From contig DJVT01000009.1 of the NCBI GenBank assembly GCA_002441305.1, forward strand, positions 345,210-409,209: a stretch of 64,000 nucleotides of DNA, read 5' to 3'. Shown here in pieces: positions 38,601 through 57,790 of this stretch; position 1 is the stretch's first letter; each line of letters starts with the position of its first letter. Under the pieces are notes generated by a model that was not told the DNA's origin, ran no database searches, and saw only the letters and a list, made by a program, of their open reading frames with translations. Position numbers and translations under genes: made by a program. This DNA comes from Candidatus Omnitrophica bacterium UBA6249. Lineage in GTDB: Bacteria; Omnitrophota; Gorgyraeia; Gygaellales; Profunditerraquicolaceae.

Positions 38601-38712
38601 TCACTGACAAACTGCGCCTCGCCCGACCCTCACCCGACACCGGCTGCCAAGGACCCGTAAACAAAATGCGTGCGGAGGAGGGCGGAAGGTGTCGCCCTCT
38701 GCCAGACGCATT
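38601..38712. repeat. Conserved GC-rich motif copy 1 plus adjacent hairpin
   Basis: TCACTGACA..GCGCCTCGCCCGACCCTC..AAGGACCC (38601-38656), with an invariant 18-mer at 38614-38631. A hairpin AATGCGT...ACGCATT follows at 38665-38712. Confidence 0.8.
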
Positions 38713-38781
38713 TATCTGGCAAAACTTTCGCGATGGAAGAAGTTAACAAGAACATCGATCCGGTTCCTCCGCATTAGATTG

Positions 38782-39465
38782 TTACTCAGCAACCAACTCT
38801 ACCTGCTCCACTGGCTTTGCGGGCTCAGGCCGATATTTTTTCATAAGGTTATTAATCTCCTGCTCGAGGTCGAAATGCGATACCCAGTGATCCCTGACAC
38901 GGATATCCTCCTCGATATCTGCCGTTGTCGGCCTGCGAAGCTCGGCGATACCCTTTTCTTTCTCAGCATGAAAAATACTGTGCGGCTCTGTTCCTAAACT
39001 GGGGCTAAACGCGGGGTAATCTTCCAAATGCCGTCGGGTAGTCTCTGGATGACCGTAGATAGCAAATGCTAAGGCAAACAACCGGCCCTTCGCCTTCCAC
39101 AGATCGAGGATCAACGTCTCCTTCTCTCTGTTCATGGCTTTACGGTCTTCGATGAGCCTTTTCATCTCTTCGTCCCGCTTCTCCGTCAACGCTTCCTCCA
39201 TTTTCGTCTTGAGTTTAGCGAGGCTCTCGGCAACGACATCGAGATTGATATTGCATTCCTCCAACGCCAAATCCGCTAGCTTCACAGCCTCGGGATTAAT
39301 CCTCTCGCCGCACATAACCCGGCTTCTGATTTCTTTTGCTTTCTCTTTAGCTTCAGTTTTTTCCTGCTCGCAGAGCTTCTGCTTTTCTTCAAGCGCCACA
39401 ATCTGCTCGGCGATCTCTTCCGGCGTGCTTTTGCCCTTTAACACGTTTAAAAAATTCAGTTTCAT
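38782..39465 (-). CDS. Coiled-coil hypothetical protein (variable slot of element 1)
   Basis: 227 aa, charged and helical. I recognise no motif. It occupies the position held by the Nu1-like gene in element 2. Confidence 0.5.
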   Translation of the reverse strand: MKLNFLNVLKGKSTPEEIAEQIVALEEKQKLCEQEKTEAKEKAKEIRSRVMCGERINPEAVKLADLALEECNINLDVVAESLAKLKTKMEEALTEKRDEEMKRLIEDRKAMNREKETLILDLWKAKGRLFALAFAIYGHPETTRRHLEDYPAFSPSLGTEPHSIFHAEKEKGIAELRRPTTADIEEDIRVRDHWVSHFDLEQEINNLMKKYRPEPAKPVEQVELVAE

Positions 39466-39559
39466 TTTTCGTTCCTCCTGTATTTGTTGATTTGAATTAC
39501 TATTCTTCTGCCTTGGTTTTTACGTTTGCCTACATCTTTCACCTCCCCTTTTTCTACCC

Positions 39560-39772
39560 TCTGAACGTTGTGAACATTGACTACTCTTATTTTTCTAACT
39601 GCCTCTAATGACCCCCTACAAGGGGCTTTCCCTCTTTCTCTTTTCTTTTTTAGAAAAGGAAAGAAACGACATTCACAATATTCATGAATCCCACATCCTC
39701 TTGTAGATTATGAGGATAATCCGTGACCAAAGCTGTGAACGTAGCCCGTCCACAGTCACAATGGTCACACCT
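39560..39772. repeat. Iteron-like word pairs and an AT-rich tract downstream of primase 1 (replication origin candidate)
   Basis: TGAAC occurs at 39562 and 39571, TTCA(C/T) words at 39671 and 39680, and GTCACA at 39755 and 39764. Each pair is 9 bp apart. An A/T-rich imperfect palindrome lies at 39630-39665. Confidence 0.4.
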
Positions 39773-42136
39773 TTAATACGGCCTTGGATCGTCTTCATCA
39801 CAAAAATCCTTTCCTTGTTCACCTTCATTCACGCCTTCGTTCACACTGCCTTTAAAAAGCGAATTACCCTTTATCCTGCGTAAGATAACCAGCTTCCTGC
39901 CGGTACCGGCTTCACGCTTTTCCGGACGTAAAATATCAATGCCCACACTGCGCATAACCGGAGCGATGCGCATAAGCTCTGAACCAAGTGCCCGGGCGTT
40001 GCCGGGTAGCGTCTTATCAAAACCGGTTTCCGGCTTAATGCTCTCAAGCAGTGTGGTCGCAGAACCCGCCCACTCGCCTCCGTTTGACTCCACAAGATAG
40101 ACCAACTTTTGCGCGAATGTGCTCTCTTCTGCGGTGTCCTCCCATTTATGATCAACCGATTGCTGATACCGCTTAAAAAATTCCTCCCGGGAGAATCCCA
40201 AATGCTGTGACAACGCCGCACCCCACTGCGCGAAATCCGACATCCTAAAACGCTCATGCCCGGACACACCGTCAATAACTGCCATTGCGTTTGAAATTGC
40301 CGAAAAGAAACCGCCGAGAATACCGGGAAGCGAAGCCCGCCATTCGTAAGCGATGACTTTCTCCGGCCTTGTCTCTTTTAAGATTGGTATATCGAAGATA
40401 ACTGAACGGTCTAATAGATCCGGACGGCATATAGCACTGCCGATACCGTTTAAAACGAAACATCGGCGATAGGTCCTGATGAATTCCTCATCATTGGTGT
40501 AAAGCGATCGCTTCATATCTCCCTCGCCTGTTACTGCCCGGCATAAAAAATCACTGAACCACTCAGACACGCGAGAAAAATTGTCGAAATTATTCAACCA
40601 GTGTTTATCCGCGATCATCTGCGCCTGCTCTAAATCCTTAGGCACAGAAATGGACATCACCTTGGAAGGATCGCACAGGCTTTTAATCATCCGGGAGTTG
40701 TTAGACTTTCCTGTTCCCTGCTCGCCTATCTGCACTGGTATGACATGAGGAATATCGGGAATAAAGAAAGTCGCTACCGCCGTCATGAATAGACAAGCGT
40801 CATCTTTATTGATATTGCAAAACTCCAAAAGCTTTTTAGGATCAGAGCCCTTGACCGGAAAAACCTGCTCTGCCTGATGGGGGTATCGCTTGAATATTGG
40901 AGGCAGGAAAACAACTTCCCATCCATCTTTAGTAATAATGACCCCGCGCCAGTCTTGAGTGGTCAGGTCATAATAAATAGCCCCGTTATGCCAACCGACA
41001 CGGTTATATAGCTCAACCTGCCTTCCGCCTTCGCACTTCGCCTCAATCTGAACTTTCGCCTGCTTTATAGCTTCGCTCCCGGGCGGATGGCCGAAGTCCT
41101 GCCGGTAACGCAGAGCGCAGTAATTCCTGAAGCGGGAACTGCTTGTCTGGCAAACCTCAAGATGTTTATCAAACGGAAGAACAACGTAAGGATTACCTTG
41201 TTGGTCGCGCAGATATTCGCTAACCGTTTCTTCACAGTCACGGGTGATAATTTCGCCTTGGGTAAGTTTCTTCTGCTTCGGAGATGTTGACGCCTCAAAT
41301 ACATTTTCGGTGTCTTGGACGGCCTTCTGAATAACGCTTTGCCCGTAAGTCTTGCCGTCACCAAAATGTTTCTCATCCCACTTCGGCCGCATAAGCCCCG
41401 ACTGCCGGAACAACGCATCCATCTGCCCGGCGTCTTTGCTTGTCCAAAACGCCAGCTTGTTGCACAACGCCAGATCCGCCTCACTTTGAGAGGGATAATC
41501 GGTCTGCCACTGGCCCGAATAAAGCCGCTGAAACCTCTCCGCGTCTTTACTCTTGGCGATCAAGGTAAGAATGTCGTCTGCGGGCCCTTTATCCACAAAC
41601 CGGCTGAATATATCTTTAAGCGCATCAGTGCACTCGTTAAGCTCAGCCGGATAATTTTCAAGGCGGTTGCCGGTAACGGTAAAGAATCGGCCATTGGTAT
41701 AAATCTCCAAGCCGATCTTGGAAATTTTGCAGGCCCGGGCGATCTCGCCTTTACAAAGGATATGAATACCTGTGCCGCTTGGCGAATATTCGGAATATGA
41801 ATTAATCGCCTTGAGAATCTCAACCGCATACGGCGCGATTGATCCGTCTTTGACGCAGTGGTCAATATCCACGCCCACATACGGCGGCTGAAACATAAAG
41901 CCAATGCCCGCGTAGTTACGCTGAATCGCCAAATCTAAAGCCATTTCAAAATCAGTCCATGTTGCAGGATCGTTGCTTTTCGCAGGCGCGCCGGTCATAA
42001 CATTCATCGGAATCTTGTCAACACGGCCATTGTTCTCTCTGGTGACATAACCCACCCACGCCTTTTGAGACCTAATCTCGGCGGGAATAATTGAAGGCAT
42101 CTTGTTAAAATCTATCATTGCTGTTTGCATCGCCAC
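39773..42136 (-). CDS. Prim-Pol (AEP) primase fused to a DUF3987-like P-loop helicase
   Basis: 787 aa with the N-terminal AEP motifs VGVDIDHC and SPSGTGIHIL, and the PriCT-like block YPSQSEADLALCNKLAFWT...LFRQSGLMRPKW. The Walker A motif is GEQGTGKS. Confidence 0.8.
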   Translation of the reverse strand: MAMQTAMIDFNKMPSIIPAEIRSQKAWVGYVTRENNGRVDKIPMNVMTGAPAKSNDPATWTDFEMALDLAIQRNYAGIGFMFQPPYVGVDIDHCVKDGSIAPYAVEILKAINSYSEYSPSGTGIHILCKGEIARACKISKIGLEIYTNGRFFTVTGNRLENYPAELNECTDALKDIFSRFVDKGPADDILTLIAKSKDAERFQRLYSGQWQTDYPSQSEADLALCNKLAFWTSKDAGQMDALFRQSGLMRPKWDEKHFGDGKTYGQSVIQKAVQDTENVFEASTSPKQKKLTQGEIITRDCEETVSEYLRDQQGNPYVVLPFDKHLEVCQTSSSRFRNYCALRYRQDFGHPPGSEAIKQAKVQIEAKCEGGRQVELYNRVGWHNGAIYYDLTTQDWRGVIITKDGWEVVFLPPIFKRYPHQAEQVFPVKGSDPKKLLEFCNINKDDACLFMTAVATFFIPDIPHVIPVQIGEQGTGKSNNSRMIKSLCDPSKVMSISVPKDLEQAQMIADKHWLNNFDNFSRVSEWFSDFLCRAVTGEGDMKRSLYTNDEEFIRTYRRCFVLNGIGSAICRPDLLDRSVIFDIPILKETRPEKVIAYEWRASLPGILGGFFSAISNAMAVIDGVSGHERFRMSDFAQWGAALSQHLGFSREEFFKRYQQSVDHKWEDTAEESTFAQKLVYLVESNGGEWAGSATTLLESIKPETGFDKTLPGNARALGSELMRIAPVMRSVGIDILRPEKREAGTGRKLVILRRIKGNSLFKGSVNEGVNEGEQGKDFCDEDDPRPY

Positions 42137-42351
42137 GTCCGTATTTGGTTAAGTATTGCCCGGAGTTTACTGTCGTTATATGGCACGCGACAGGTATAAA
42201 GCCACATCTCGACCTCTGAGGCGCGAAACATAACTTCCCCGCTTGGTAGCCTAAAATGCGGGATAAGCCAATTCTTCACCAGATAGTCAATCTGGCTCCG
42301 CCTTAGATTGAGATGAGTCATAAGCCGTTCAACAGTCAATAAGCCTTCCAT
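42115..42351 (-). CDS. AlpA/excisionase-family HTH regulator
   Basis: 78 aa. LLTVERLMTHLNLRRSQIDYLVKNWLIPHFRLPSGEVMFRASEVEMWL matches the HTH_17 pattern. It overlaps the primase start by 22 nt. Confidence 0.6.
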   Translation of the reverse strand: MEGLLTVERLMTHLNLRRSQIDYLVKNWLIPHFRLPSGEVMFRASEVEMWLYTCRVPYNDSKLRAILNQIRTWRCKQQ

Positions 42352-42460
42352 GTGATATCCTCCTCGCGAATTTCTTTTCTACTTGGAGTTTATCACTGGA
42401 AAAATCATGCCTTCCCAGCTTTACCCAAATTTGCTCAAATTTTTACATTGATTGTGCGTA

Positions 42461-42488
42461 AAAAAGAAAAAACGCCCTAAGGCGTTTT
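42461..42488 (-). terminator. Rho-independent terminator after the 203-aa gene
   Basis: The minus strand has the stem AAAACGCC / GGCGTTTT with a 4-nt loop, followed by a T-run. Confidence 0.7.
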
Positions 42489-42522
42489 AGTGGGAATTAC
42501 TGCTATTTTTGTTTTGGAAATA

Positions 42523-43134
42523 CTACTGAGAGGAGTCTTGATCGTCAGCGGTAGGAAGTTCTTCGGCGGCGATCTGCCATTTGCTTCCGATCTTGCGGGC
42601 TAATAACTGATTATTCTCAAGCCAGTTTTGCATGGTCTTACGGCTGATATTAAAAACCTTGGCCCAATGCGTGATTGGATACGGGCTTGACCAGCCGCTA
42701 CGCGGGATTAATTTCGGTCTTATTCTAAACTCAGAAGACATTATCCTGTTTCTTGCACCCATAATACGGTGCATCATCCCAAGTTGCATATCTTTCGTCT
42801 TTTCACACCATTCATTGTAGCCTCCGGGAAGCCACGTTGGAAGCTCAGGGATAACCGGTGTTTCATTCGGCCCGAATAGATATTCTATAATGGGGATAGC
42901 CGCTTGATTGGCTTCCTGATAAAGATTTCCCAAGTCAGGCTTTTTTACTTTATGCTTCTTTAGCGTTTTCTCATACTTGTGGAATACATCATCTTTTGTC
43001 AGCCAATCATAGGAATCGATTGATGAAAGACCGAGCCTTTCAATAGTCAACACCCACTCACTGGAGGCCTTCTCATACGCTGACCACTTTTTCCAGAACT
43101 CCGTAACGCAATCGAGTTTATTCTTTTTATCCAC
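42523..43134 (-). CDS. Conserved 203-aa element protein with C-terminal excisionase-type HTH
   Basis: It aligns along its whole length with 60633-61244 of element 2. The C-terminus reads ITHWAKVFNISRKTMQNWLENNQLLARKIGSKWQI. Confidence 0.7.
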   Translation of the reverse strand: MDKKNKLDCVTEFWKKWSAYEKASSEWVLTIERLGLSSIDSYDWLTKDDVFHKYEKTLKKHKVKKPDLGNLYQEANQAAIPIIEYLFGPNETPVIPELPTWLPGGYNEWCEKTKDMQLGMMHRIMGARNRIMSSEFRIRPKLIPRSGWSSPYPITHWAKVFNISRKTMQNWLENNQLLARKIGSKWQIAAEELPTADDQDSSQ

Positions 43135-43179
43135 AACGGATTATCCTAATCATTGTTAAAATGACCAACATCGCTTCAT

Positions 43180-43395
43180 TTAATCAATACGTAAAGTGCT
43201 GTCCTTAAAAATATTTTTTTCTTCATTCTGGTTCAGTTTTCTAAAAACAAATAGGTGTTCATGCATGATTAAAAGGAAATCCTTGTCCTGCGCGCTCCAG
43301 TATCTGGTAGTCGAACAATTGTGTTGTACTTTTATAACATCTTCTTTGAGTAGGAATCCGGCTTTTAAGAAGCGTCGCATAACAGAAAATGCCAA
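43180..43395 (-). CDS. Hypothetical 71-aa ORF (weak)
   Basis: An ORF with no motif in AT-rich DNA. An equally long antisense ORF overlaps it. Confidence 0.25.
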   Translation of the reverse strand: MAFSVMRRFLKAGFLLKEDVIKVQHNCSTTRYWSAQDKDFLLIMHEHLFVFRKLNQNEEKNIFKDSTLRID

Positions 43396-43462
43396 CGGAA
43401 CATAATGCCTGCGTCGGCGAGTATCTCCGATGAGGATGGCGCAATATTGAAGGCCAATTTAC

Positions 43463-43681
43463 TCAGTCAGCTTTTTCTATATCTTTTTCCTCCTCTGAAA
43501 CACGATTATCTTCACCGCATTGAATAGACAGGACAAGCGGCCCCTTTGCAAAATTCATACAAATTACACCCTGCGAGTCAACAACACCGTTTATATCGGT
43601 ATCTTCCGATAACTGCCAGCCACTATTTTTTAATGTGGCTAATATTTTCTTCGCCTCTTGAATATGATTTTTATCGAGCAT
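43463..43681 (-). CDS. Small hypothetical protein translationally coupled to the DpnI-like gene
   Basis: 72 aa from the internal ATG (MLDKNHIQEAKKILATLKNSGWQL...). It overlaps the DpnI-like stop by 11 nt. Confidence 0.4.
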   Translation of the reverse strand: MLDKNHIQEAKKILATLKNSGWQLSEDTDINGVVDSQGVICMNFAKGPLVLSIQCGEDNRVSEEEKDIEKAD

Positions 43682-44468
43682 TTTCTTCCTTATGCTCCAA
43701 CGGCGTAAGCCGATACTTGCCACGACCGATGAATTCCAAATACCCTTTATCACGTAAAATTTGCAATTGCTGCCTGATCTTATCCTTGATGTGTTTATTG
43801 CCAGGATAAGCTCTCTTTAATTCCTCTTCAAATTTATAAACATCATCTAACAAAAAGTCTTTTTTGTCTAAACGGTCGATGCATTTCATAACCGTTAATG
43901 TCCACCCTCTCGATTCAGATCGGGAAGATTCCCTTAAAAATAGAGTCCTCCGCCATTCAGCCGACACCTTGTCTTTTGGCGAAACCTGATGATCACGTAT
44001 AAAATATATCTTCCCGGCCTCAGGGATAGAACGAAGCAGAATATTGCAACCAACCCAATGGCTCCGCCTAGCCTCAGGTGAGAGCGGTTTTCTCATCTCA
44101 ATAATATCGGCCGTAAAAAAATGTTTTGGGATTACCAAAAAATTTACAACCGCCCATGATGTAATCGAATAATTCAAAAAGAAAAAATTTGGATTATTTA
44201 GATCTTTTAGTCGCTCGAGCATCGTCTCATAAGCGCCATCGACTACTTTATCTCCGATTTTGTCTTTTTTGCTCTTTAACTCAAATTCCTCTCTACAACT
44301 TAGGCAAAAGAAATCCGCGACAGGCCTGCTATTCGGAAATTGCCTAAGAGAAAGCCCACAATTGGGACAATATATCTCTCGCTCAACCCAGTTCTCGGTA
44401 AGAACTCTGGCCTTCTGAGAAGGACTTTTGTATGCCGCCGATAGGCGCTGATCAAGATCGAGGTTCAT
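43671..44468 (-). CDS. DpnI-like methyl-directed type IIM restriction endonuclease (Dam-replacing family)
   Basis: 265 aa that aligns throughout, from memory, with S. pneumoniae DpnI. Shared blocks are SQKAR.LTE.WV....YCPNCG, NRPVADF.C..C.EEFELKSKK, NPNFFFL, SRGWT and NHIK.KIRQQLQILRDK...F.GRGKYR. Confidence 0.85.
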   Translation of the reverse strand: MNLDLDQRLSAAYKSPSQKARVLTENWVEREIYCPNCGLSLRQFPNSRPVADFFCLSCREEFELKSKKDKIGDKVVDGAYETMLERLKDLNNPNFFFLNYSITSWAVVNFLVIPKHFFTADIIEMRKPLSPEARRSHWVGCNILLRSIPEAGKIYFIRDHQVSPKDKVSAEWRRTLFLRESSRSESRGWTLTVMKCIDRLDKKDFLLDDVYKFEEELKRAYPGNKHIKDKIRQQLQILRDKGYLEFIGRGKYRLTPLEHKEENAR

Positions 44469-44622
44469 ATTGGATAGCCGTAGCCAGTCTCCTTAAAACC
44501 GAATAAATATGATCACAATCCTCACCGGCTTCTAGCCAGTTTTTCTTTTCATCATCCCAGCAATAATCCAAGACACGCCTAATATCATCTTCCACCTGCT
44601 CATTCATTATTATTGATCGCAT
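44452..44622 (-). CDS. Possible 56-aa ORF overlapping the DpnI-like start (below the ORF-track cutoff)
   Basis: My own translation is MRSIIMNEQVEDDIRRVLDYCWDDEKKNWLEAGEDCDHIYSVLRRLATAIQYEPRS. Its stop lies 17 nt inside the DpnI-like gene. Confidence 0.3.
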   Translation of the reverse strand: MRSIIMNEQVEDDIRRVLDYCWDDEKKNWLEAGEDCDHIYSVLRRLATAIQYEPRS

Positions 44623-44634
44623 AGGCCTCGTTGA

Positions 44635-45768
44635 TCACCTTTTTTCTTTTGATGCCGAAGAATCTTTTAATGCCCGCTCAATTTCTTTAATTGTCGGCAA
44701 ACTTGATTTCAATTCCTTAGGTAATGCCCGTGTAATTTGATATTCAGACACCCCGATGGCTTTGGTTACGCCTTTCAAAGCATATTCGGCAATAATCTGA
44801 TTCTTATCCTGACACAGGATAAGTCCTATCGTTGGCCTATCTTGTTCATGACAAAGTTGGGCGTCTACCACATTACAATAAAAATTCATTTTTCCCGCGT
44901 ATTCTGGTTTAAATGGCCCCCGCTTGAGATCTACGACAATGAAGCACCGCAAACGCAAGTGGTAAAATAAAAGATCCAGATAAAATTCTTTCGCGCCTAT
45001 GTTCAAGAGATACTGTCGGCCTACAAATGCAAAGCCCTGCCCTAACTCAAGGAGGAATTTCTCAACGTGTGCGAGAAGGCCCAACTCAAGTTCTCGCTCA
45101 TGAAAAGGTTCCGATAAAGTAAGAAAGTCAAAGATATACGGGTCCTTTAAACTTTGCTCTGCAAGATCCGATTGAGCTGGCGGCAATGTCCGCGAGAAGT
45201 TATGAATCACTTTTCCAGAACTTCGATGAGCTGCTGATTTAATCATTGCGCTCAATCTATCGCGACTCCAGCCCTGTTCTATCGTCTGCTGCATATACCA
45301 CAATCTATCATCAAGATCACTTACTTTCTCCATGAGAAGCACATTATGAAACCATGGCAATTTTGCAGCAACCTGCTGCAAAATTAAAGAATGCTTCTGA
45401 CGAGCTTTATTTTTTGCAGCACCCTGCTGCATAATTAACGGCTTCCCATATTCCCGGGCAAAGCGAATCATATACCCAATATTTCTCTCCGAAAAACCCT
45501 TTACCTCTGGCATTTCATTCCGAATATCCCTGGCTAATTTAGGAATAATTGCCGCGCCCCAACCAGCTCTTGCTTGACGTTCAATAATGGCCCGTCCGAT
45601 ATCCCAATAAAGGACAACCATTTCATTATTGACAGCGAACGTGGCTTTAACTTGTGCCGACCGAATACGCTCTTTCACCGCTTTTAAAAAAACAGGATAG
45701 TCGGAAGGCAACCCTGATAACTTTTTAACAGATAGTGAATTACTTGATGGCGACATCTTTTTTGTCAT
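44635..45768 (-). CDS. DUF1016 / YhcG family PD-(D/E)XK nuclease-domain protein
   Basis: 377 aa with the typical YhcG N-terminus (..RIRSAQVKATFAVNNEMVVLYWDIGRAI...). The C-terminal nuclease core reads YLDLLFYHLRLRCFIVVDLK. Confidence 0.8.
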   Translation of the reverse strand: MTKKMSPSSNSLSVKKLSGLPSDYPVFLKAVKERIRSAQVKATFAVNNEMVVLYWDIGRAIIERQARAGWGAAIIPKLARDIRNEMPEVKGFSERNIGYMIRFAREYGKPLIMQQGAAKNKARQKHSLILQQVAAKLPWFHNVLLMEKVSDLDDRLWYMQQTIEQGWSRDRLSAMIKSAAHRSSGKVIHNFSRTLPPAQSDLAEQSLKDPYIFDFLTLSEPFHERELELGLLAHVEKFLLELGQGFAFVGRQYLLNIGAKEFYLDLLFYHLRLRCFIVVDLKRGPFKPEYAGKMNFYCNVVDAQLCHEQDRPTIGLILCQDKNQIIAEYALKGVTKAIGVSEYQITRALPKELKSSLPTIKEIERALKDSSASKEKR

Positions 45769-46397
45769 AAATCATCCTCTAAATTAGGAATCGTATGGAC
45801 TACTACTCCCTGAGCCTGAAAATCATTTCCCGCCACAATAGGTTTATGATTTTTATTCGTCGACCGTGGTTTTAATACCACCGTATGGGCAGAAGCCGAA
45901 TATTCTTTGATTGTAACCTCATTATCGACTAAAGCAACGATCGCCTCTCCGTTTTCGGCGGTTCGTTGTTTCTTAACCAGAATAAAATCCCCATCGTTAA
46001 TTCCTTTTTTATTCATAGAATCACCCTTGGCGCGCAAAAGGAAGTATTTATGCGGAGGTTTAGCGAGTTTCGTTGAGACAGGAAATACAGCTTGAATATT
46101 CTCTTCAGCAAAAATCGGCATTCCACATGGGGCCGTACCCACCAAAGGGATATCAATCGTTTGAATATTAGCCTTATCCTCAAAATCCCGGACGATTTGT
46201 AAAGATCCGATCGGGCTCCTACGAAGAATACCCTTCGAGATGAGTTTATTAACTAACAGAGAAGCAGATCGAGGTGAGCGGTATCCCAGCGTCTTCATCA
46301 AATCGCGCAATGAAGGACATCGACCAAAATTAATTATCGAGCTTCTTATTTCTTTTAGGGCAATATTTTCTTTATCTGAAAGCGTTAATGTTCTCAT
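45765..46397 (-). CDS. LexA-like repressor (winged-helix plus S24 peptidase)
   Basis: It has a LexA-type DNA-binding N-terminus (PSLRDLMKTLGYRSPRSASLLVNKL) and an S24 core (GDSMNKKGINDGDFILVKK, catalytic Ser/Lys context). I use the ATG at 46397. It has a 4-nt overlap with the DUF1016 gene. Confidence 0.8.
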   Translation of the reverse strand: MRTLTLSDKENIALKEIRSSIINFGRCPSLRDLMKTLGYRSPRSASLLVNKLISKGILRRSPIGSLQIVRDFEDKANIQTIDIPLVGTAPCGMPIFAEENIQAVFPVSTKLAKPPHKYFLLRAKGDSMNKKGINDGDFILVKKQRTAENGEAIVALVDNEVTIKEYSASAHTVVLKPRSTNKNHKPIVAGNDFQAQGVVVHTIPNLEDDL

Positions 46398-46414
46398 GTA
46401 TACAATTGTATACA
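46397..46414. promoter_or_regulatory. Perfect 18-bp palindrome abutting the lexA-like start (operator candidate)
   Basis: TGTATACAATTGTATACA is two self-complementary TGTATACA octamers joined by AT. It has an SOS-box-like TGT...ACA periphery. Confidence 0.6.
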
Positions 46415-46687
46415 ATATGAATAAGAAGTCAATGATTTTTTGCGAATTTTATAAGACAAATGTCAGTAGTGCCAAATGTCCATTTGCCAGCAAATATTAA
46501 ATTCTCGTGGGCATTTTCATGTCCATCCATGTCCATCAAAATGCCCTTTTTCGGCCTTCCCGGGAGTCCCTAAAACACCCCTAAAATCGCCTATTTCCCG
46601 TCGCTGGACGCTCATTTTGGCCGGGTTGACCACTTATGCCCAAACCCCAAAAGTGATGGACATGGACATCGATTTTTTTAACCACTA

Positions 46688-46815
46688 TCACTGGCTCCTT
46701 GCGCCTCGCCCGACCCTCACCCAAGCCCCCTTCCAAGGACCCAGTGCCACTTAACAACATATTTCGTAAATACAAGAATCCTCCCGCAATAAGGCATTAC
46801 GGAAGGATTCTTGTA
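46688..46815. repeat. Conserved GC-rich motif copy 2 plus adjacent hairpin
   Basis: TCACTGG..GCGCCTCGCCCGACCCTCACCC..CCAAGGACCC (46688-46742). A hairpin TACAAGAATCCT...AGGATTCTTGTA follows at 46771-46815. It is preceded by GGACAT/ATGTCC word arrays at 46461-46536 and 46656-46669. Confidence 0.8.
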
Positions 46816-47328: not shown

Positions 47329-47345
47329 TTTTACCCCCTCCCTTT

Positions 47346-48441: not shown

Positions 48442-48910
48442 ATTTCTTTATTATGCCTAAAACGTTATCTAACAACTTGCGCCGGACAATGACAAAAACA
48501 ATCTTCACCGGCCCCGCTGTCCCCTGTCCGTCAATCGTCGTTGCGCCGTATCCTTTGGAACGAAAATATCTCAATAAACTAGCCGGATTTTTATTCGTTA
48601 TAAACTGGACAGCTAAATTGCCTATGGCGATTTTTCGTTCGATTGTAATACCTACAAAAGTGCCCATACTAAAGCCGCCCGCAAAAGCGATATAGCTGAT
48701 CGGGTTATTCAAATTCTGCATAATTTGCGATATGCCGATAAGCCAAACAAGCATCTCAAAAAATCCAATAATAGCAGCTAATGCCCTTATCCCTCGGCTG
48801 ACAAAAATAATCCTGACAGCAGCCATACTGACGTCTGCCGCCCGCGCGAGAAAAATTAAAATAGGAATCAATATTGGAACAAAATCATTTTGCGGAATAA
48901 CAAAAGACAT
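48374..48910 (-). CDS. UPF0316 family membrane protein with DUF2179 domain
   Basis: 178 aa with three TM helices (...ARAADVSMAAVRIIFVSRG...) and a C-terminal soluble domain (GYGATTIDGQGTAGPVKIVFVIVRRK). Confidence 0.6.
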   Translation of the reverse strand: MSFVIPQNDFVPILIPILIFLARAADVSMAAVRIIFVSRGIRALAAIIGFFEMLVWLIGISQIMQNLNNPISYIAFAGGFSMGTFVGITIERKIAIGNLAVQFITNKNPASLLRYFRSKGYGATTIDGQGTAGPVKIVFVIVRRKLLDNVLGIIKKFDQGAFYTIEDVRGVARLNPVI

Positions 48911-49140: not shown

Positions 49141-49142
49141 GA

Positions 49143-49871: not shown

Positions 49872-49943
49872 TTAGAATTCCCGTCTTTTATTCGTTTAAT
49901 AAGCAGCAGTAAGGCTGGGAAAGCGTAAAATTGCGAATAATTC

Positions 49944-50609: not shown

Positions 50610-50797
50610 GCCTCATCACTTTTTGATCCCCGCACGGATTTGATAATAATGGACTTCATTTGTAATTGATAGAGTGGGCAATTCATAAATTTACCGACAC
50701 AATATTGTCTTTTGCGTTTGATGTTGGGGCGAAATAAACCGTCTCCGTAACATCCGCAATGACCAATCGGTCTTGTAGCAACAAAATAAGGACACAT
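50606..50797 (-). CDS. Small 4-Cys protein, paralog 2
   Basis: 63 aa from the internal ATG (MCPYFVATRPIGHCGCYGDGLFRPNIKRKRQYCVGKFMNCPLYQ...). It has a 4-nt ATGA overlap with the PhoU-like gene. Confidence 0.55.
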   Translation of the reverse strand: MCPYFVATRPIGHCGCYGDGLFRPNIKRKRQYCVGKFMNCPLYQLQMKSIIIKSVRGSKSDEA

Positions 50798-50967
50798 GAT
50801 GCATTTCCTCTTAATAAGCAGCAACCCCTGGCCCCTGTAAAATTGAGGCTGCGAGAAAATGTTAAACAATCTCAAATCGTTGAATATTTTTTAAGCCCCT
50901 TAGCTGCTACAAATGTATCAAAAAGGGGATTAACGAAAGGTTAAATAATAATTAAAATTTTTAATGA

Positions 50968-52697: not shown

Positions 52698-52714
52698 TAT
52701 TTGCTCCTAAGAAT

Positions 52715-54175: not shown

Positions 54176-54229
54176 AAGTGAATTCTGTTTTTACCTTAAC
54201 CAATTCAATTTTTTTGCATAACTTCTTAA

Positions 54230-56110
54230 TCAATCTGCACCTATCAACGCCTCCGCCAAATCCGCCATGCTGTGTCTATAAGGTAGACAACGGCCATCCG
54301 AAGGTACGCAAAAGTATACGCTTTCCCTTCGGGGAACCTTCGCCTTCGGCTCGGTTTCCTCGGTGCTTTTCTTCGCCTTTTTTGGCGTCATTTCTCTCTT
54401 TGTTTGACATTTTACTCCTTCTTTCAAACTGTCATCCTGAGGAAGGCCGCAGGCCGACCGAAGGATCTCATCCTTAGCCAGATTCTTCGCCTTCGGCTCA
54501 GAATGACGGACTTTCAGTGCCTCGTCATAGCACATCTTCCACGGCTGATTAATATCAACCTTAACAATTTCCTGATTTTGAATATATATCCCTTTAAATA
54601 TAATCCTCATAAACGTCTTTATAAGGTAATCCATCTGCTGGGTGTTGGGATTACTCCTCAATTTCAATAGAAAATCCTGCGTGGCTTTCACCAGATTAAC
54701 CGCGTTACGTTTTTCAAGGATCTTTAACTGGATCGACTTTATATCCTGTCTGAGCTTCTTCTCCTCATTCCTGAGAAGTTCAGCCTTGTCTTTATAAATA
54801 TCAATATTGATCTTATCCTCTGAGAAAACCTCATAAAGCGCCTTCTGTTTTTCAAGGTTCTTGGCCAACGCCTTTTCCGTATCTTCCAACTGCTCGATAT
54901 AACACTGTTCAGGCTCAGTTGCGCTTAACTTGATCATGTCCCCCAGTTCTTCGATAACATGCAAATTTCTACTTATCGTATCAATAATATCCCAAACCTG
55001 TTTGTTGATCCCATCGGCCGTAACTGATTTATTCTTGCACTTAACATACGATACACCGACAGATGAACAGCAATACCACGGCCTACGTTCCTTCGTCCTG
55101 TGGTTCTTCGTTAAAGTCAACCCTCGGTAATTTCGCCCGCATTCATGGCATTTTAAAACACCGGACAGGTGATAAACATTGTTGCGAAATCTCACGACTT
55201 TATTTGTGCGGTTTCTATCAAGCAGTTTCTGCGCCTTATCAAACACCTCTTGAGTGATGATCGCTTCATGGCAATCCTTCACCTCAATAATCTTAGACGG
55301 ATCATTATTCACATACTTGTATCCCTTACCCTCGCCATTATGCGTTTTCTCTTTTTTCTCATACCGCTTTTTATTCCACACCAGCATGCCCAGATACGTC
55401 TTATTCTTGAGAATCGATGAAATAAATTTGGTATAAAACTTCCCGCCCTGACGTGATTTGATGCCTAAATTATAATAATGCCCGGCGATCTGAGACGTAC
55501 TTTTACCGCTAATATACATATCAAAAATCTCTTTAACGATCTTCGCTTCTTCGTCGTGGACTTCCAGCTTCTTGATCTCTTTATTGTAACGGTAACCATA
55601 AGGAGCATACCGTGCGCCTTGCCAGTGCCCACGCTTAACTCCCACAACCATGCCCGGGAATACGCGCTCAACCAGACGATTGCGTTCAAACTCCGCGCAA
55701 CTGCCCAACATCTGTATTGCCATCTTACCCGCGCTTGATGTGGTATCAAACGGCTCAGTCGCTGATTTGTAACCGATCCCTAACGACTCAAACTCCTCAA
55801 GTAACGCCAAAAGATCCTTTAACTTCCTGCTAAGCCTGTCCTGCTTATAAACCATTACCAAATCAAACTGCTTATTCTTCGCGTCAAACAAAAGCCTCTG
55901 CAAAGCTGGCCTGTCCATATTTCCACCGGAATAACCGTCATCCATATAAACATCTTTACCGGACATCGTGCAAACAACATCCCAGCCAAAGTTCTTGGCA
56001 TACTGCAAAAGGTAATCCCGCTGAACTTCCAGCGAAAACCCCTCCCGCGCCTGATCCTCTGTGCTGACTCTTGTGTATAAAGCTACTTTCATGTTCTCCT
56101 GCTCTGTCAT
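54230..56110 (-). CDS. Large serine recombinase (integrase 2) carrying an in-frame repeat insertion near the C-terminus
   Basis: 626 aa, collinear with integrase 1 (ALYTRVSTEDQAREGFSLEVQR..., zinc ribbon, coiled coil). The probable start is MKVALY at 56092. The tail reads across the att core into the distal arm of element 1. Confidence 0.9.
   Translation of the reverse strand: MTEQENMKVALYTRVSTEDQAREGFSLEVQRDYLLQYAKNFGWDVVCTMSGKDVYMDDGYSGGNMDRPALQRLLFDAKNKQFDLVMVYKQDRLSRKLKDLLALLEEFESLGIGYKSATEPFDTTSSAGKMAIQMLGSCAEFERNRLVERVFPGMVVGVKRGHWQGARYAPYGYRYNKEIKKLEVHDEEAKIVKEIFDMYISGKSTSQIAGHYYNLGIKSRQGGKFYTKFISSILKNKTYLGMLVWNKKRYEKKEKTHNGEGKGYKYVNNDPSKIIEVKDCHEAIITQEVFDKAQKLLDRNRTNKVVRFRNNVYHLSGVLKCHECGRNYRGLTLTKNHRTKERRPWYCCSSVGVSYVKCKNKSVTADGINKQVWDIIDTISRNLHVIEELGDMIKLSATEPEQCYIEQLEDTEKALAKNLEKQKALYEVFSEDKINIDIYKDKAELLRNEEKKLRQDIKSIQLKILEKRNAVNLVKATQDFLLKLRSNPNTQQMDYLIKTFMRIIFKGIYIQNQEIVKVDINQPWKMCYDEALKVRHSEPKAKNLAKDEILRSACGLPQDDSLKEGVKCQTKREMTPKKAKKSTEETEPKAKVPRRESVYFCVPSDGRCLPYRHSMADLAEALIGAD
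54295..54314. repeat. att core copy 2 (CATCCGAAGGTACGCAAAAG), the junction between element 1 and element 2
   Basis: Identical to 36258-36277. It lies in the 3' end of integrase 2. Confidence 0.8.
54431..54507. repeat. Inverted pair of the GTCATYCTGA...GAAGRATC repeat family (miniature element) inside the integrase 2 ORF
   Basis: GTCATCCTGAGGAAGGCCGCAGGCCGACCGAAGGATC (54431-54467) faces GATTCTTCGCCTTCGGCTCAGAATGAC (54481-54507). The pair is translated as RHSEPKAKNLAKDEILRSACGLPQDDS. Confidence 0.8.
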
Positions 56111-56138
56111 TCTGAGGCCCCGCAGGGGCCGAAGAATC
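56106..56138. repeat. Solo copy of the same repeat family between xis2 and int2
   Basis: GTCATTCTGAGGCCCCGCAGGGGCCGAAGAATC. It is absent from the homologous xis1/int1 junction, where the two genes overlap. Confidence 0.8.
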
Positions 56139-56314
56139 TAATCTTTCAAAGTCCCCCGCCATTCTTTAATCTTCTTAATACACTCATCCGTAAACACCGG
56201 CCAATCCCTGTAATCGCGCTTCGGTTTGATCCAGCCTTTACGCACCCAATGGATCATAGTCTGGCGATGCACCCCTAAAATCTTTGCCGTCTCTGTCATC
56301 GTGTATGTCTTCAT
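56138..56314 (-). CDS. Excisionase-type HTH protein, RDF candidate (element 2 copy)
   Basis: MKTYTMTETAKILGVHRQTMIHWVRKGW...; 51 of 58 residues are identical to the element 1 copy. Confidence 0.65.
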   Translation of the reverse strand: MKTYTMTETAKILGVHRQTMIHWVRKGWIKPKRDYRDWPVFTDECIKKIKEWRGTLKD

Positions 56315-56323
56315 AAGCAAGTT

Positions 56324-56360
56324 GTCATCCTGACCCTGAACGAAGTGAAGGGGAAGGATC
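56324..56360. repeat. Repeat family copy on the 3' side of the GIY-YIG gene
   Basis: GTCATCCTGACCCTGAACGAAGTGAAGGGGAAGGATC. It ends at the GIY-YIG stop codon. Confidence 0.8.
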
Positions 56361-56653
56361 TAAATAATACTTTCATATAAATCCTTCCACTCCGGGTTAT
56401 TCTTTTCAATTAAAGCGATCTTCTTTTTCCTAAGCCATCCTTTAATCTGCTTCTCTCGTTCTATAGCTGTCATCATGTCATCCGAAACTTCAAAATGAAC
56501 CAATTTATGCACATTGTATTTTTTGGTAAATCCATCGACCATTTTATTCTTATGCTCATAAACCCGCTTAACCAGATCACTCGTTACACCTGTATAAAGA
56601 ACCTTATTATGCACATTCGTTAAAATGTAAACGTATCCTTGTTTTTCTCTCAT
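56360..56653 (-). CDS. Small GIY-YIG nuclease-domain protein (UPF0213/COG2827 type)
   Basis: 97 aa with GYVYILTNVHNKVLYTGVTSDLVKRVYEHK (GIY...YTG), then ..E...IK.W.R.KK. Confidence 0.85.
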   Translation of the reverse strand: MREKQGYVYILTNVHNKVLYTGVTSDLVKRVYEHKNKMVDGFTKKYNVHKLVHFEVSDDMMTAIEREKQIKGWLRKKKIALIEKNNPEWKDLYESII

Positions 56654-56658
56654 CTTCA

Positions 56659-56693
56659 GATCCTTCGGTCGGCTTCGCCTCCCTCAGGATGAC
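56659..56693. repeat. Repeat family copy on the 5' side of the GIY-YIG gene, inverted relative to 56324-56360
   Basis: GATCCTTCGGTCGGCTTCGCCTCCCTCAGGATGAC, which is the reverse complement of GTCATCCTGAGGGAGGCGAAGCCGACCGAAGGATC. Confidence 0.8.
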
Positions 56694-56733
56694 GTGCCGT
56701 TCATTGAAGGCCAGTATACCTCATTATACAACC

Positions 56734-56928
56734 TTATACAAGAGGATTCTTCTCCGTATCATAGCAAACCAAAAACATTTTCGATAAGACCTCTATCCCA
56801 TCATAAAACGATTTACGAGCCTCCTGTATTTCCGCGATAGACATACCCCGGCTTTTGAGTTTTTCCTCTAAAGCCTCCCATCCCCGCGAATTCTCCGTAA
56901 TTGTTCTATTCTTCTGCTTCTCCATCAT
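56734..56928 (-). CDS. Conserved small element protein (element 2 copy)
   Basis: NSRGWEALEEKLKSRGMSIAEIQEARKSFYDGIEVLSKMF aligns with 38162-38365. I chose the start by homology (MMEKQKN). Confidence 0.55.
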   Translation of the reverse strand: MMEKQKNRTITENSRGWEALEEKLKSRGMSIAEIQEARKSFYDGIEVLSKMFLVCYDTEKNPLV

Positions 56929-57532
56929 GACCTTTACGTACACCGGCAAATTCGTCGATAATATCGGCTATCGCCTCATAAAGAAGCGTTTCAATTTCCC
57001 GAGGTTCTCTCATCGCTAAACGAGGCGCCATTATTGTCGGCAATGCTAAAAATGACCGCTTAACTACCATGATCCTCTCAATTCTTCCCTTCTCAACTTC
57101 ATCTCTTGGCAAGACCTCGCCTAAAGCCTTTTTTAAATCAATCTCTGACAAAAGAGCCTTGTTCTTCCGATATTCAATATCCCATTTTTCCTTCTCGGTA
57201 TCCCGCACATCCCGATAACTCTGCTGAGTCATTCGCCATGCCTTAATTTCCAAAAGATCGTAATGACCTTCGGGCGTCACAGGCATTCCTTCTTTCGCCC
57301 AGTAGTAAACAGTCCTGACAGACACATTCAAAGCCTTGGCGACCTTCTCTTTGGTATCCACAATACCGTTAGGTAAATCAGATTCCGCCTCAAGCCTTTC
57401 AAGTTCTTTAAGCTCTGCTGGTGTTAGCGGCGTACCGCTATGAAGCTTCTCATACAGATATAAGTGCCGCTTTTTCCGTGCTATCTCCACGATATTGGGT
57501 TTCTTGTTTTCCGCTGTTTTATTCTCTTCCAT
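56906..57532 (-). CDS. HTH protein resembling a phage Nu1-type small terminase subunit (tentative)
   Basis: 208 aa. KEKVAKALNVSVRTVYYWAKEGMPV...YDLLEIKAW, followed by a coiled coil, parallels the lambda Nu1 layout (HTH, ..GMPV.., ..W.., helical C-terminus) as I recall it. Confidence 0.4.
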   Translation of the reverse strand: MEENKTAENKKPNIVEIARKKRHLYLYEKLHSGTPLTPAELKELERLEAESDLPNGIVDTKEKVAKALNVSVRTVYYWAKEGMPVTPEGHYDLLEIKAWRMTQQSYRDVRDTEKEKWDIEYRKNKALLSEIDLKKALGEVLPRDEVEKGRIERIMVVKRSFLALPTIMAPRLAMREPREIETLLYEAIADIIDEFAGVRKGHDGEAEE

Positions 57533-57687
57533 ACTGAAATCCTCCGTTTCAAAATTTGCAGGTTATTAACCCCTGATTCAGACCTTAAAATCTTTAAATA
57601 CTCCTTTTTCTATAGGGAAAATACACTTCTCCCTTGCTTCGCCGCTTCAATCTTATTGAACATGCAACCTAAAAATTGAAGTTAATA

Positions 57688-57790
57688 TCACTGACAGACC
57701 GCGCCTCGCCCGACCCTCGGCAAACCCCCGTGGTAAGGACCCATTGTTTAAAAGATGCCGGAGTTACATGTAGTCGCAAGACTACACTCC
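57688..57790. repeat. Conserved GC-rich motif copy 3 plus adjacent hairpin
   Basis: TCACTGACAGACCGCGCCTCGCCCGACCCTCGG..GTAAGGACCC (57688-57742). A hairpin GGAGT..GTAGTC-GCAA-GACTAC-ACTCC follows at 57760-57790. Confidence 0.8.

What the first reader, a model, noticed from the sequence alone, without database searches (positions are those of the whole stretch)
38601..57790. A conserved ~55-nt GC-rich noncoding motif plus a variable hairpin occurs in three co-oriented copies, a candidate cos/pac site, oriT or ncRNA
The three copies are at 38601-38656, 46688-46742 and 57688-57742. They share TCACTG, an invariant 18-mer GCGCCTCGCCCGACCCTC, and a terminal AAGGACCC. The roughly 17 nt between the 18-mer and AAGGACCC vary. 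Each copy is followed 8-28 nt later by a strong hairpin whose position is conserved but whose sequence is not (38665-38712, 46771-46815, 57760-57790). All copies lie in intergenic DNA, are flanked by short-word arrays, and have the same orientation. They are about 8.1 kb and 11.0 kb apart. In element 2 the motif sits directly upstream of the Nu1-like gene, which is where cos lies relative to Nu1 in lambda. Read on the coding strand, the core is GAGGGTCGGGCGAGGCGC. As I recall, the P2-family cohesive end begins GGCGAGGCG. That resemblance is weak and unverified. Having two copies inside element 1 also suggests that element 1 is composite, with the 43-47 kb segment acquired from a third related element.
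Basis: partly seen in the sequence, partly recalled or inferred. Interest (0 to 1): 0.75.

Follow-up and report, generated by a model that had tools for sequence, protein, structure and literature searches.

The report
Lambda-type cos sites on phage satellites
The three repeats are most likely lambda-style DNA-packaging (cos) sites carried by small mobile elements that have no capsid or packaging-motor genes, so they probably depend on a resident phage; this is a known strategy, seen here in a little-studied phylum (Omnitrophota).

Summary
The 18-mer occurs exactly three times, co-oriented, against 0.04 expected by chance. All genes here are on the minus strand. Read that way, each copy is GGGTCCT, then 20-21 nt, then GAGGGTCGGGCGAGGCGC, then N7, then CAGTGAT, then an A/T-rich stretch and short repeated words.

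This matches phage lambda cos. GGGTCCT is lambda's cosQ heptamer at nearly the same distance from the nick. The 18-mer aligns with cosN, and the word arrays sit where lambda's TerS-binding R sites (cosB) lie.

About 250 further copies were found in viral, genome and metagenome contigs, mostly Omnitrophota and Planctomycetota. In the phages among them, the motif lies just upstream of ParB-methylase, a Nu1-like TerS, a gpA-family TerL and a lambda-family portal.

The window has no TerL, portal or capsid gene. The copies sit in two satellite-like elements (primase-polymerase, excisionase-like gene, large serine recombinase, one with its own TerS) and at the edge of a defence-gene island. In the related Ca. 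Velamenicoccus archaeovorus LiM genome, a resident prophage has the same cosB words as copy 2.

The hairpins are real but are not a conserved part of the motif. ncRNA, oriT and P2-type cos readings are not supported. Actual cleavage is untested.

The parts
38417..38656 (-). cos copy 1 (c1). cosQ-like GGGTCCT at 38650-38656. Invariant 18-mer (cosN-like) at 38614-38631, with the predicted 12-nt cohesive end GGTCGGGCGAGG at 38617-38628. CAGTGAT at 38600-38606. Proximal word array GTGATGTCATGTCAT at 38569-38583. Distal inverted arrays of GTCAGT/TGACAT words at 38417-38459.
   Evidence: It lies between p227 and the excisionase-like gene plus serine recombinase of satellite A.
46508..46744 (-). cos copy 2 (c2), a discrete 237-bp module. 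cosQ-like at 46736-46742. 18-mer at 46701-46718, with the predicted cohesive end at 46704-46715. CAGTGAT at 46687-46693. Proximal array GATGTCCATGTCCATCAC at 46653-46670. Distal inverted array GATGGACATGGATGGACATG at 46518-46537.
   Evidence: Module boundaries come from L241, L195, L170, L180 and L233. The same words and layout occur in L008-type phage cos regions and in the LiM prophage L259.
57533..57742 (-). cos copy 3 (c3). cosQ-like at 57736-57742. 18-mer at 57701-57718, with the predicted cohesive end at 57704-57715. CAGTGAT at 57687-57693. Its cosB-like segment has a different inverted repeat, CTTCAAT...ATTGAAG (57645-57681), and runs up to the TerS start codon.
   Evidence: Among the loci examined, this cosB type is followed by a MerR208-type TerS in L178 and L232. 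L214 begins with the same flank but is cut 13 nt after the 18-mer.
56906..57532 (-). Satellite-encoded small terminase subunit (Nu1-like, 208 aa), immediately downstream of c3.
   Evidence: phrog_57 at E 2e-20. Its helix-turn-helix aligns to lambda Nu1 residues 4-49. It is 36-61% identical to the TerS proteins of the related phages.
36250..43148 (-). Core of satellite A: HTH/ANT-like gene (42523-43134), p78, primase-polymerase of 787 aa (39773-42136), p227 of unknown function (38782-39465), c1, excisionase-like MerR71 (37907-38122), and a large serine recombinase (36250-37935) abutting a miaB-like gene.
   Evidence: The right end at 36249/36250 comes from L181, and homology to LiM starts at 43148.
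54230..64000 (-). Satellite B, which may run past the window end: p917, HTH/ANT-like gene (60633-61355), primase-polymerase/D5 helicase of 757 aa (58035-60308), c3, TerS, GIY-YIG (56360-56653), excisionase-like gene (about 56141-56317), and a large serine recombinase (54230-56110).
   Evidence: It is a paralogue of satellite A: ANT 77%, excisionase-like gene 86%, recombinase 73% identity.
43149..46507 (-). Variable cargo between c2 and the core of satellite A: a LexA/S24-like repressor (45765-46415), a YhcG PD-(D/E)XK nuclease (44635-45768) and a DpnI-like endonuclease (43671-44468).
   Evidence: In strain LiM a different sequence occupies this position.
38665..38712 (-). Hairpin upstream of c1. 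The equivalent hairpins are at 46771-46815 and 57760-57790. They are probably terminators of the upstream genes and are not part of the conserved motif.
   Evidence: Folding z-scores are -5.1, -6.4 and -2.8. The hairpins are absent from phage relatives. A simple terminator scan does not call them.

Best explanation
**What it is.** Each copy is a lambda-type cohesive-end (cos) site, read on the minus strand.
- GGGTCCT is the cosQ element, which in lambda acts as the packaging-termination signal.
- The invariant 18-mer GAG|GGTCGGGCGAGG|CGC is cosN. A gpA-family large terminase is predicted to make staggered nicks there, leaving a 12-nt 5' cohesive end, GGTCGGGCGAGG.
- N7-CAGTGAT corresponds in position to lambda's I2 spacer.
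- The repeated words form cosB, the binding sites for the Nu1-like small terminase. There is a proximal array at about bp 46-63 and an inverted distal array about 150 bp further on.

**How it probably works.** The three copies sit in elements with no motor or structural genes. These look like phage satellites and a defence island that use a helper phage's terminase and capsids.
- c2 carries the cosB words of a resident prophage family.
- c3 has a private cosB and is followed by the satellite's own TerS. This would redirect the helper's TerL to the satellite.
- c1 has a cosB type that so far is seen mainly next to satellite-type genes.

**Shown versus inferred.**
- Shown: the sequence anatomy, the homology to lambda cos, the genomic association, and the helper-satellite word match.
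- Inferred: cleavage, the exact nick positions, TerS binding, and actual packaging.
For: **1. Match to lambda cos.** Lambda's ends read tttacGGGTCCT-N23-|GGGCGGCGACCT|CGC. The window copies read (t)ttacGGGTCCT-N20/21-GAG|GGTCGGGCGAGG|CGC.

**2. cosQ conservation without selection.** Ninety-two unique family sites were chosen by the 18-mer alone. Of these, 84 have GGGTCCT 20-22 nt upstream and 90 have AGTGAT or a close variant downstream.

**3. Link to packaging genes.** In related phages the motif lies 0.15-0.25 kb upstream of ParB-methylase, then TerS (phrog_57), then gpA-family TerL (PF05876/PF20454), then a lambda-family portal. The upstream replication genes vary.

**4. Depth of the signature.** The looser pattern GGGTCCTT-N14-22-GAGGGTC has a co-oriented gpA-type TerL 0.57-2.7 kb downstream in 23 of 80 usable hits. 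This includes phages whose TerL is only 26-41% identical, and some lambdoid ones.

**5. Nick position.** The lambdoid contig L092 aligns to phi80 so that phi80 bp 1 falls on the G after GAG. This places the nick at GAG|GGTC.

**6. Symmetry.** The 18-mer has its dyad centre at its midpoint, with 5 of 9 symmetric pairs. Lambda cosN has 10 of 16 bp symmetric (PMC9026076).

**7. cosB position and behaviour.** The proximal array starts about 46 bp from the predicted end. Lambda R3 is at bp 50-65 (PMC9026076). cosN is constant while the cosB words differ between TerS clades, as with lambda versus phage 21 (PMC4669245).

**8. Shared words across different replicases.** Phages and satellites with different replicases share identical word arrays.

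**9. Helper match.** The LiM genome holds a prophage (L259) whose cosB words match c2 (L241).

**10. No packaging genes here.** The window has no TerL, portal or capsid gene.
Against: - No physical DNA ends were observed. Contig ends cluster near the motif, but at scattered offsets, as expected for assembly breaks at a shared repeat.
- No cultured relative with mapped ends exists. The best TerL identity in the phage collection is 42%.
- The cosQ sequence and its lambda coordinates (48473-48479, Wieczorek and Feiss 2001) rest on my memory, because that paper is not in the library. The lambda sequence itself was checked.
- The symmetry of the 18-mer is only marginally above chance.
- Copies 1 and 2 are not followed by a TerS gene.
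- Word arrays next to primase genes also resemble an iteron origin.
- Two cos sites 8.1 kb apart in one region is awkward for simple cos-to-cos packaging.
Confidence: 0.82

Rival explanations
1. The repeat is an iteron-type replication origin. The word arrays would bind the neighbouring primase-polymerase/helicase, and the GC-rich block plus A/T-rich stretch would act as the priming or unwinding region.
For: Copies 1 and 3 lie 0.3-1.2 kb downstream of the primase-polymerase genes. The layout is a GC block, an A/T-rich run and repeated words. The words differ between lineages.
Against: - The motif keeps a fixed position relative to the packaging genes, while the upstream replication gene changes between D5 helicase, HTH_36/DnaD-like and others.
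- Identical word arrays occur in phages and satellites that have different replicases.
- c2-type modules occur in islands with no replicase at all.
- It carries the lambda cosQ heptamer and cosN-like spacing.
Confidence: 0.06
2. The repeats are attachment or recombination sites for the serine recombinases, or scars of tandem integrations.
For: The copies are co-oriented direct repeats 8-11 kb apart, near recombinase genes. In L248, where the gene was read in full, a serine recombinase gene ends about 100 nt upstream of a c2-type copy. L256 shows only a short recombinase-like fragment at that spot, and in L187 the recombinase-like pieces end about 0.9 kb upstream.
Against: - Large serine recombinases use short att sites with a 2-bp crossover and do not leave 55-240-bp direct repeats (established knowledge).
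- In prophages the motif is internal, several kb from the recombinase and next to the terminase genes.
- The right end of element A is at 36249, 2.4 kb from c1.
Confidence: 0.03
3. The repeat is a structured noncoding RNA: the motif plus the adjacent hairpin, transcribed as one unit.
For: The location is intergenic, a stable hairpin lies nearby, and there is a weak consensus helix between GGGUCCU and GAGGGUC.
Against: - No Rfam match, even at E up to 10.
- The motif folds no better than shuffles in copies 1 and 3, with z-scores of 0.0 and +0.65.
- The only consensus helix joins invariant bases, so there is no covariation.
- The hairpin is not conserved in relatives.
Confidence: 0.02
4. The sites are homologous to cos, but one or more window copies (especially c2) are non-functional relics of decayed prophages or satellites.
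For: c2 has no adjacent TerS, replicase or integrase. It borders variable cargo.
Against: c2-type modules keep cosQ, cosN, CAGTGAT and both word arrays intact. They are 88-100% identical over about 237 bp in many genomes that have unrelated flanks. This argues for selection.
Confidence: 0.07

Closest known systems
Phage lambda cos (cosQ-cosN-cosB) and the cos sites of lambda-like phages 21, phi80, N15 and Gifsy-1
   Same: - The GGGTCCT heptamer lies 20-23 bp upstream of the nick.
- The nick region is GC-rich and partly symmetric, and is followed by CGC.
- TerS-binding repeats begin about 46-50 bp into the left end, with an oppositely oriented second set.
- cosQ and cosN are constant while cosB varies with TerS specificity.
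- The site is linked to a Nu1-like TerS, a gpA TerL and a lambda-family portal (PMC4669245, PMC9026076).
   Different: - The predicted end sequence differs (GGTCGGGCGAGG against GGGCGGCGACCT).
- cosB is made of tandem 5-7-bp TGTCnnn words, not 16-bp R sites.
- In the phages a ParB-methylase gene sits between cos and TerS.
- The hosts are Omnitrophota and Planctomycetota.
- The TerL of the lambdoid contigs L092, L104 and L140 is only about 24-26% identical to this family's TerL.
- Cleavage has not been shown.
cos-bearing phage-inducible chromosomal islands of E. coli (for example EcCICFT073, with the cos-rpp arrangement)
   Same: These are small integrated elements without structural genes. Their cosQ and cosN nearly match the helper's. 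A gene just downstream of cos redirects packaging specificity (PMC9026076, PMC6739421). Compare c3 followed by its own TerS.
   Different: - The redirecting gene here is a full-length TerS homologue, not an Rpp adaptor.
- Integration is by a large serine recombinase.
- Replication is by an NrS-1/D5-type primase-polymerase.
- A second, co-oriented cos module lies 8-20 kb upstream.
Satellite P4 with helper P2
   Same: P4 is a satellite of about 10 kb that has a primase-helicase, carries the helper's cos and has no capsid genes. Nine nucleotides (GGCGAGGCG) are shared with P2 cosL.
   Different: P2/P4 cos gives a 19-nt end cut by a different terminase family. It has no GGGTCCT cosQ. The 9-nt identity is probably coincidental.
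cos-type SaPIs such as SaPIbov5
   Same: A satellite that relies on a helper-type cos site instead of encoding a complete terminase (my own knowledge).
   Different: Different terminase family (HNH-dependent cos phages of Staphylococcus) and an unrelated site sequence.

Membership tests
Lambda-type cos site | A cosQ heptamer GGGTCCT lies about 20-25 bp upstream of the nick site. | tested here: met
   It is present in all 3 window copies and in 84 of 92 unique relatives chosen by the 18-mer alone, at a spacing of 20-22 nt. Lambda's spacing is 23 nt. The identity of cosQ as GGGTCCT comes from memory of Wieczorek and Feiss 2001.
Lambda-type cos site | cosN is a partly two-fold symmetric site with conserved flanks and a conserved left half. 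| tested here: met
   The 18-mer has its dyad centre at its midpoint, with 5 of 9 pairs symmetric (read directly from the sequence). The GAG|GGTC left boundary is conserved across distant gpA-type phages, while the right half varies. The right flank CGC is the same as in lambda.
Lambda-type cos site | Staggered nicking yields complementary cohesive ends on virion DNA. | not testable with these tools
   No virion end data are available. Contig ends near the motif fall at scattered offsets.
Lambda-type cos site | cosB consists of repeated TerS-binding sites about 45-65 bp from the end, with an oppositely oriented second set. | tested here: met
   In c2 the proximal array lies at bp 46-63 and the inverted distal array about 150 bp further on. 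The layout and words are the same in the phage relatives. c3 has a different inverted repeat. Binding itself was not tested.
Lambda-type cos site | The site lies upstream of, and co-oriented with, a Nu1-like TerS and a gpA-family TerL. | tested here: met
   This holds in the related phages. In the window only c3 has a TerS, and no TerL is present.
Phage satellite (general) | An integrase plus replication and regulation genes, with no capsid, tail or lysis genes, in a size of about 7-15 kb. | tested here: met
   The core of element A is 6.9 kb, or 10.5 kb if c2 is included.
Phage satellite (general) | The packaging signal matches that of a co-resident helper phage. | tested here: met
   In LiM, the cosB words of prophage L259 match c2 (L241). 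The window's own genome could not be examined beyond 64 kb.
Phage satellite (general) | Induction, packaging and transfer depend on a helper phage. | not testable with these tools
   This needs experiments.
P2/P4-type cos | A 19-nt end, GGCGAGGCGGGGAAAGCAC, cut by a P2-type terminase. | tested here: not met
   Only 9 nt are shared. The linked TerL belongs to the gpA family.
Iteron replication origin | The iterons are tied to, and co-vary with, the adjacent initiator gene. | tested here: not met
   The same words occur with different replicases, and with no replicase at all.
Described ncRNA families (Rfam 15) | A match to a covariance model, or conserved base-paired structure with covariation. 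| tested here: not met

The most novel reading that the evidence does not exclude
The pairing of a c2-type cos with a co-oriented satellite cos 8-20 kb downstream may be a functional two-cos cassette. It recurs in at least six genomes. Two uses are possible.

(a) A helper terminase starts at c2, whose cosB matches the helper's, and terminates at the next cosQ-cosN. The intervening island, with its defence cargo and satellite replication genes, would then be packaged straight from the chromosome or from concatemers.

(b) One element could exploit two helper families that have different TerS specificities.

In the same vein, c2 modules with cargo but no integrase or replicase (L211, L166) would be minimal cos-only islands, moved by cos-directed transduction.
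Probability: 0.2. Interest if true: 0.75.

Novelty: new member of a known kind. Interest (0 to 1): 0.55.

Why it matters
- **Mechanism and prediction.** It gives a mechanistic reading and a testable cohesive-end prediction (GGTCGGGCGAGG) for an uncultured phage family and its satellites in Omnitrophota and Planctomycetota. I found no description of satellites or prophages for these groups in the searched library.

- **Age of the signals.** The lambda cosQ heptamer and the left edge of cosN persist across phyla in phages whose TerL is only about 25-40% identical. These termination and nicking signals therefore appear much older and more constrained than the E. coli-centred literature implies.

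- **Use in annotation.** The pattern GGGTCCT-N20-23-nick could serve as a practical cos finder for gpA-type phages in metagenomes.

- **Transfer of defence genes.** The cos modules that border variable defence-gene cargo hint at a packaging-based route for moving defence islands.

Tried and rejected
- **Rfam.** Scans at gathering and at permissive thresholds found only RNase P and two tRNAs elsewhere in the window.
- **RNA structure.** Single-sequence folding and a consensus fold of 60 of the 123 unique copies gave no convincing structure.
- **Cultured phages.** A DNA search with the cos region found nothing. The closest TerL is 42% identical, so no mapped ends could be borrowed.
- **Contig termini as physical ends.** Ends are enriched near the motif but at scattered offsets, so they are best read as repeat-induced assembly breaks.
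- **Terminator scan.** The simple scan did not call the three hairpins. Calling them terminators is therefore an inference from their position after gene ends and their T-rich tails.
- **The cosQ paper.** Wieczorek and Feiss 2001 is not held in the library.
- **p227.** Pfam, PHROGs and NCBIfam gave no hit, and it shows no similarity to TerS.
- **G-quadruplex.** I considered whether the G-rich spacer forms one, but did not test it.
- **Inverted repeat around cosN in c2.** The pairing seen differs among the other family sequences I compared by eye.
Full report
**Observation**

The 18-mer GCGCCTCGCCCGACCCTC occurs exactly three times on the + strand, at 38614, 46701 and 57701. Allowing up to 3 mismatches adds no more matches. 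Shuffles give 0.04 expected.

The nearby hairpins are thermodynamically real, with z-scores of -5.1, -6.4 and -2.8. They are unrelated in sequence.

Pfam scans show that nearly all genes here are on the minus strand. The motif should therefore be read as its reverse complement: GGGTCCT, then 20-21 nt, then GAGGGTCGGGCGAGGCGC, then N7, then CAGTGAT, then an A/T-rich stretch and short repeated words.

**Gene context in the window**

The large genes next to copies 1 and 3 are large serine recombinases, at 36250-37935 and 54230-56110.

Element A contains, in order:
- an HTH/ANT-like gene;
- an NrS-1-type primase-polymerase (39773-42136);
- an unknown 227-aa gene;
- copy 1;
- an excisionase-like 71-aa MerR/HTH_17 protein;
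- the recombinase, which abuts a miaB-like gene.

Element B is a paralogue. Copy 3 lies between its primase-polymerase/D5 helicase (58035-60308) and a 208-aa protein. That protein matches terminase small subunits (phrog_57, E 2e-20). Its helix-turn-helix aligns with lambda Nu1 residues 4-49. A GIY-YIG gene, an excisionase-like gene and the recombinase follow.

Copy 2 lies between a GreA-like gene and a LexA/S24-like gene, a YhcG nuclease and a DpnI-like gene.

The window has no homologue of a large terminase, portal, capsid or ParB-methylase.

**Relatives elsewhere**

The exact 18-mer was found in:
- 42 IMG/VR contigs;
- 116 genome stretches, of which 67 are true family members. Most are Ca. 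Omnitrophota and Planctomycetota MAGs, and they include Ca. Velamenicoccus archaeovorus LiM;
- 119 metagenome contigs, of which 80 are true members.

In the phage contigs the order is always the same: a replication gene of variable type, the motif, a ParB-N/N6-methylase, a TerS homologue, a gpA-family TerL (PF05876/PF20454), then a lambda-family portal.

A second class of loci has the window's arrangement: primase-polymerase, (p227), motif, excisionase-like gene, serine recombinase, miaB.

**Homology to lambda cos**

Lambda's joined ends read ...tttacGGGTCCTttccggtgatccgacaggttacg|GGGCGGCGACCT|cgcggg.... Copy 1 reads gtttacGGGTCCTtggcagccggtgtcgggtgag|GGTCGGGCGAGG|cgcagt.

GGGTCCT is lambda's cosQ, at bp 48473-48479. 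That assignment is from my memory of Wieczorek and Feiss 2001, which the library does not hold. PMC4669245 confirms that cosQ is a highly conserved 7-bp site.

Ninety-two unique family sites were selected by the 18-mer alone. Of these, 84 carry GGGTCCT 20-22 nt upstream of the predicted nick, and 90 carry AGTGAT or a close variant downstream.

The looser pattern GGGTCCTT-N14-22-GAGGGTC picks out cos regions of much more distant phages. Of 80 hits with enough flank, 23 have a co-oriented gpA-type TerL 0.57-2.7 kb downstream. Most of those TerLs are only 26-41% identical to the query TerLs. The sequence after GAGGGTC varies among them.

Three of these contigs (L092, L104, L140) are lambdoid. Their downstream sequence, gctatttatgaaaattttc, matches lambda's. 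L092 aligns with phi80 so that phi80 bp 1 falls on the first G after GAG.

This places the predicted nick at GAG|GGTC. The invariant 18-mer then reads as 3 + 12 + 3 bp, with its dyad centre at the midpoint and 5 of 9 pairs symmetric. The predicted 12-nt end is GGTCGGGCGAGG.

**cosB**

In c2 the proximal array GATGTCCATGTCCATCAC occupies about bp 46-63 from the predicted end. Lambda R3 lies at bp 50-65 (PMC9026076). An inverted array lies about 150 bp further on.

The phages of the L008 type show the same two arrays and words.

The word type changes with TerS clade (GTCCAT, GTCAGT, GTCGTG, GTCATG, GTCGGT) while cosQ and cosN stay constant. This is the lambda versus phage 21 situation (PMC4669245).

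Phages and satellites with different replicases share identical arrays. c2-type modules also occur where there is no replicase at all. Both points argue against an iteron origin.

**Helper link**

Three LiM stretches were returned by the scan:
- c2 (L241);
- c1, 8.9 kb downstream (L226);
- a prophage of the L008 type at 1.88 Mb (L259), whose cos has the same GATGTCCATGTCCATCACTTTTGGG as c2.

The window is a close relative of LiM. The GreA flank and c2 are 99.3% identical, and the satellite core is 94.5% identical. The cargo between c2 and the satellite core differs.

**Copy 2 as a module**

Homology with several genomes covers just 46508-46744.

In L211 and L166 a c2-type module borders 3-4 kb of toxin-antitoxin and restriction-type cargo directly upstream of miaB. 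No integrase or replicase is present there.

In L248 a serine recombinase gene ends about 100 nt upstream of a c2-type module. L256 has only a short recombinase-like fragment at that spot, and in L187 the recombinase-like pieces end about 0.9 kb upstream.

A c2-type cos lies upstream of, and co-oriented with, a satellite-internal cos in at least six genomes. The spacings are 8.1, 8.7, 8.9, 19.2, 19.3 and 20.0 kb. I cannot tell whether c2 lies inside the mobile unit. This is the least explained part of the finding.

**Rivals**

- ncRNA: no Rfam match, no fold signal in copies 1 and 3, and no covariation.
- att site: inconsistent with serine-recombinase biology, and with the motif's internal position in prophages.
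- oriT: no conjugation genes.
- P2-type cos: only 9 nt are shared with P2 cosL, and the terminase family is wrong.

**What is not shown**

Cleavage, the exact ends, TerS binding and helper-dependent transfer are all unshown. Contig ends cluster near the motif but at scattered offsets, consistent with assembly breaks at a shared repeat.

**Verdict**

This is a lambda-type cos site family (confidence about 0.8). Here it is carried by satellite-like elements and a defence island in an Omnitrophota genome. It is a new member of a known kind. Two points stand out: the deep conservation of cosQ, and the recurrent, unexplained two-cos architecture.

Noticed in passing
window 38782-39465 (-): p227 is a 227-aa protein with no Pfam, PHROGs or NCBIfam match. 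It sits immediately upstream of the cos site, after a PrimPol787-type primase-polymerase, in satellites with differing cosB words (L162, L174, L206, L226). Since c1 has no adjacent TerS, p227 could be a packaging-redirection or adaptor factor.
   Followed up: partly
window 61228-63981 (-): p917 is a 917-aa protein with no family match apart from a faint DUF6922 hit. A 57% homologue occurs in a related satellite (L214). The gene starts 19 nt from the window end, so element B may continue beyond the window.
   Followed up: no
window 42000-64000: GC content drops from about 0.50 (1-42 kb) to 0.36-0.44. The drop includes the apparently housekeeping genes at 47-54 kb (Na/H exchanger, two-component systems, PhoU-like, GreA-like) that lie between recombinase B and c2. 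That 7.5-kb block may itself be island cargo. L180 shows the same layout: a short match to the 3' end of recombinase B about 7 kb upstream of c2.
   Followed up: partly
L211 and L166 (genome loci); window 43149-46507: c2-type cos modules border variable defence-type cargo directly upstream of miaB. The cargo includes AbiEi/AbiEii-like, Fic, Mrr-like, DpnI-like and YhcG genes and methyltransferases. Some of these islands have no integrase or replicase.
   Followed up: partly
window 35162-36349 versus 36250-37935: The mechanical miaB-like ORF overlaps the 3' end of the recombinase gene by 100 nt. Homology to L181 stops at 36249. The satellite is therefore integrated at the very 5' edge of miaB, and this hotspot recurs in L261, L211 and L166.
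   Followed up: partly
all three copies, for example window 38650-38656 and 38625-38631: GGGTC occurs twice as a direct repeat, once in cosQ (GGGTCCT) and once at the predicted nick (GAGGGTC), about 28 bp apart. The spacer between them is G-rich, with several G3-5 runs. Neither feature was analysed further.
   Followed up: no
L013, L181, L232, L304, L306, L321 and others: Many metagenomic contigs begin or end within about 50 nt of the motif. The conserved cos module evidently breaks assemblies of these phages and satellites.
   Followed up: partly
window 56360-56653 (-): A stand-alone 97-aa GIY-YIG nuclease gene lies between the satellite TerS and the excisionase-like gene. L261 has one in the equivalent region, after the excisionase-like gene. 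It may be a homing-type endonuclease or an anti-helper factor.
   Followed up: no
window 1258-1610 and 2774-2977 (-): Bacterial RNase P RNA (class A), tRNA-Val(CAC) and tRNA-Met(CAT). These are ordinary chromosomal genes, far from the finding.
   Followed up: no
L248, L256 and L187, upstream of the c2-type motif: A different, mutually similar hairpin (ccctat...ataggg followed by a T run) lies about 25-35 nt upstream of GGGTCC. A hairpin just before cos therefore recurs in chromosomal copies but not in the phages. It may insulate cos from read-through transcription.
   Followed up: no
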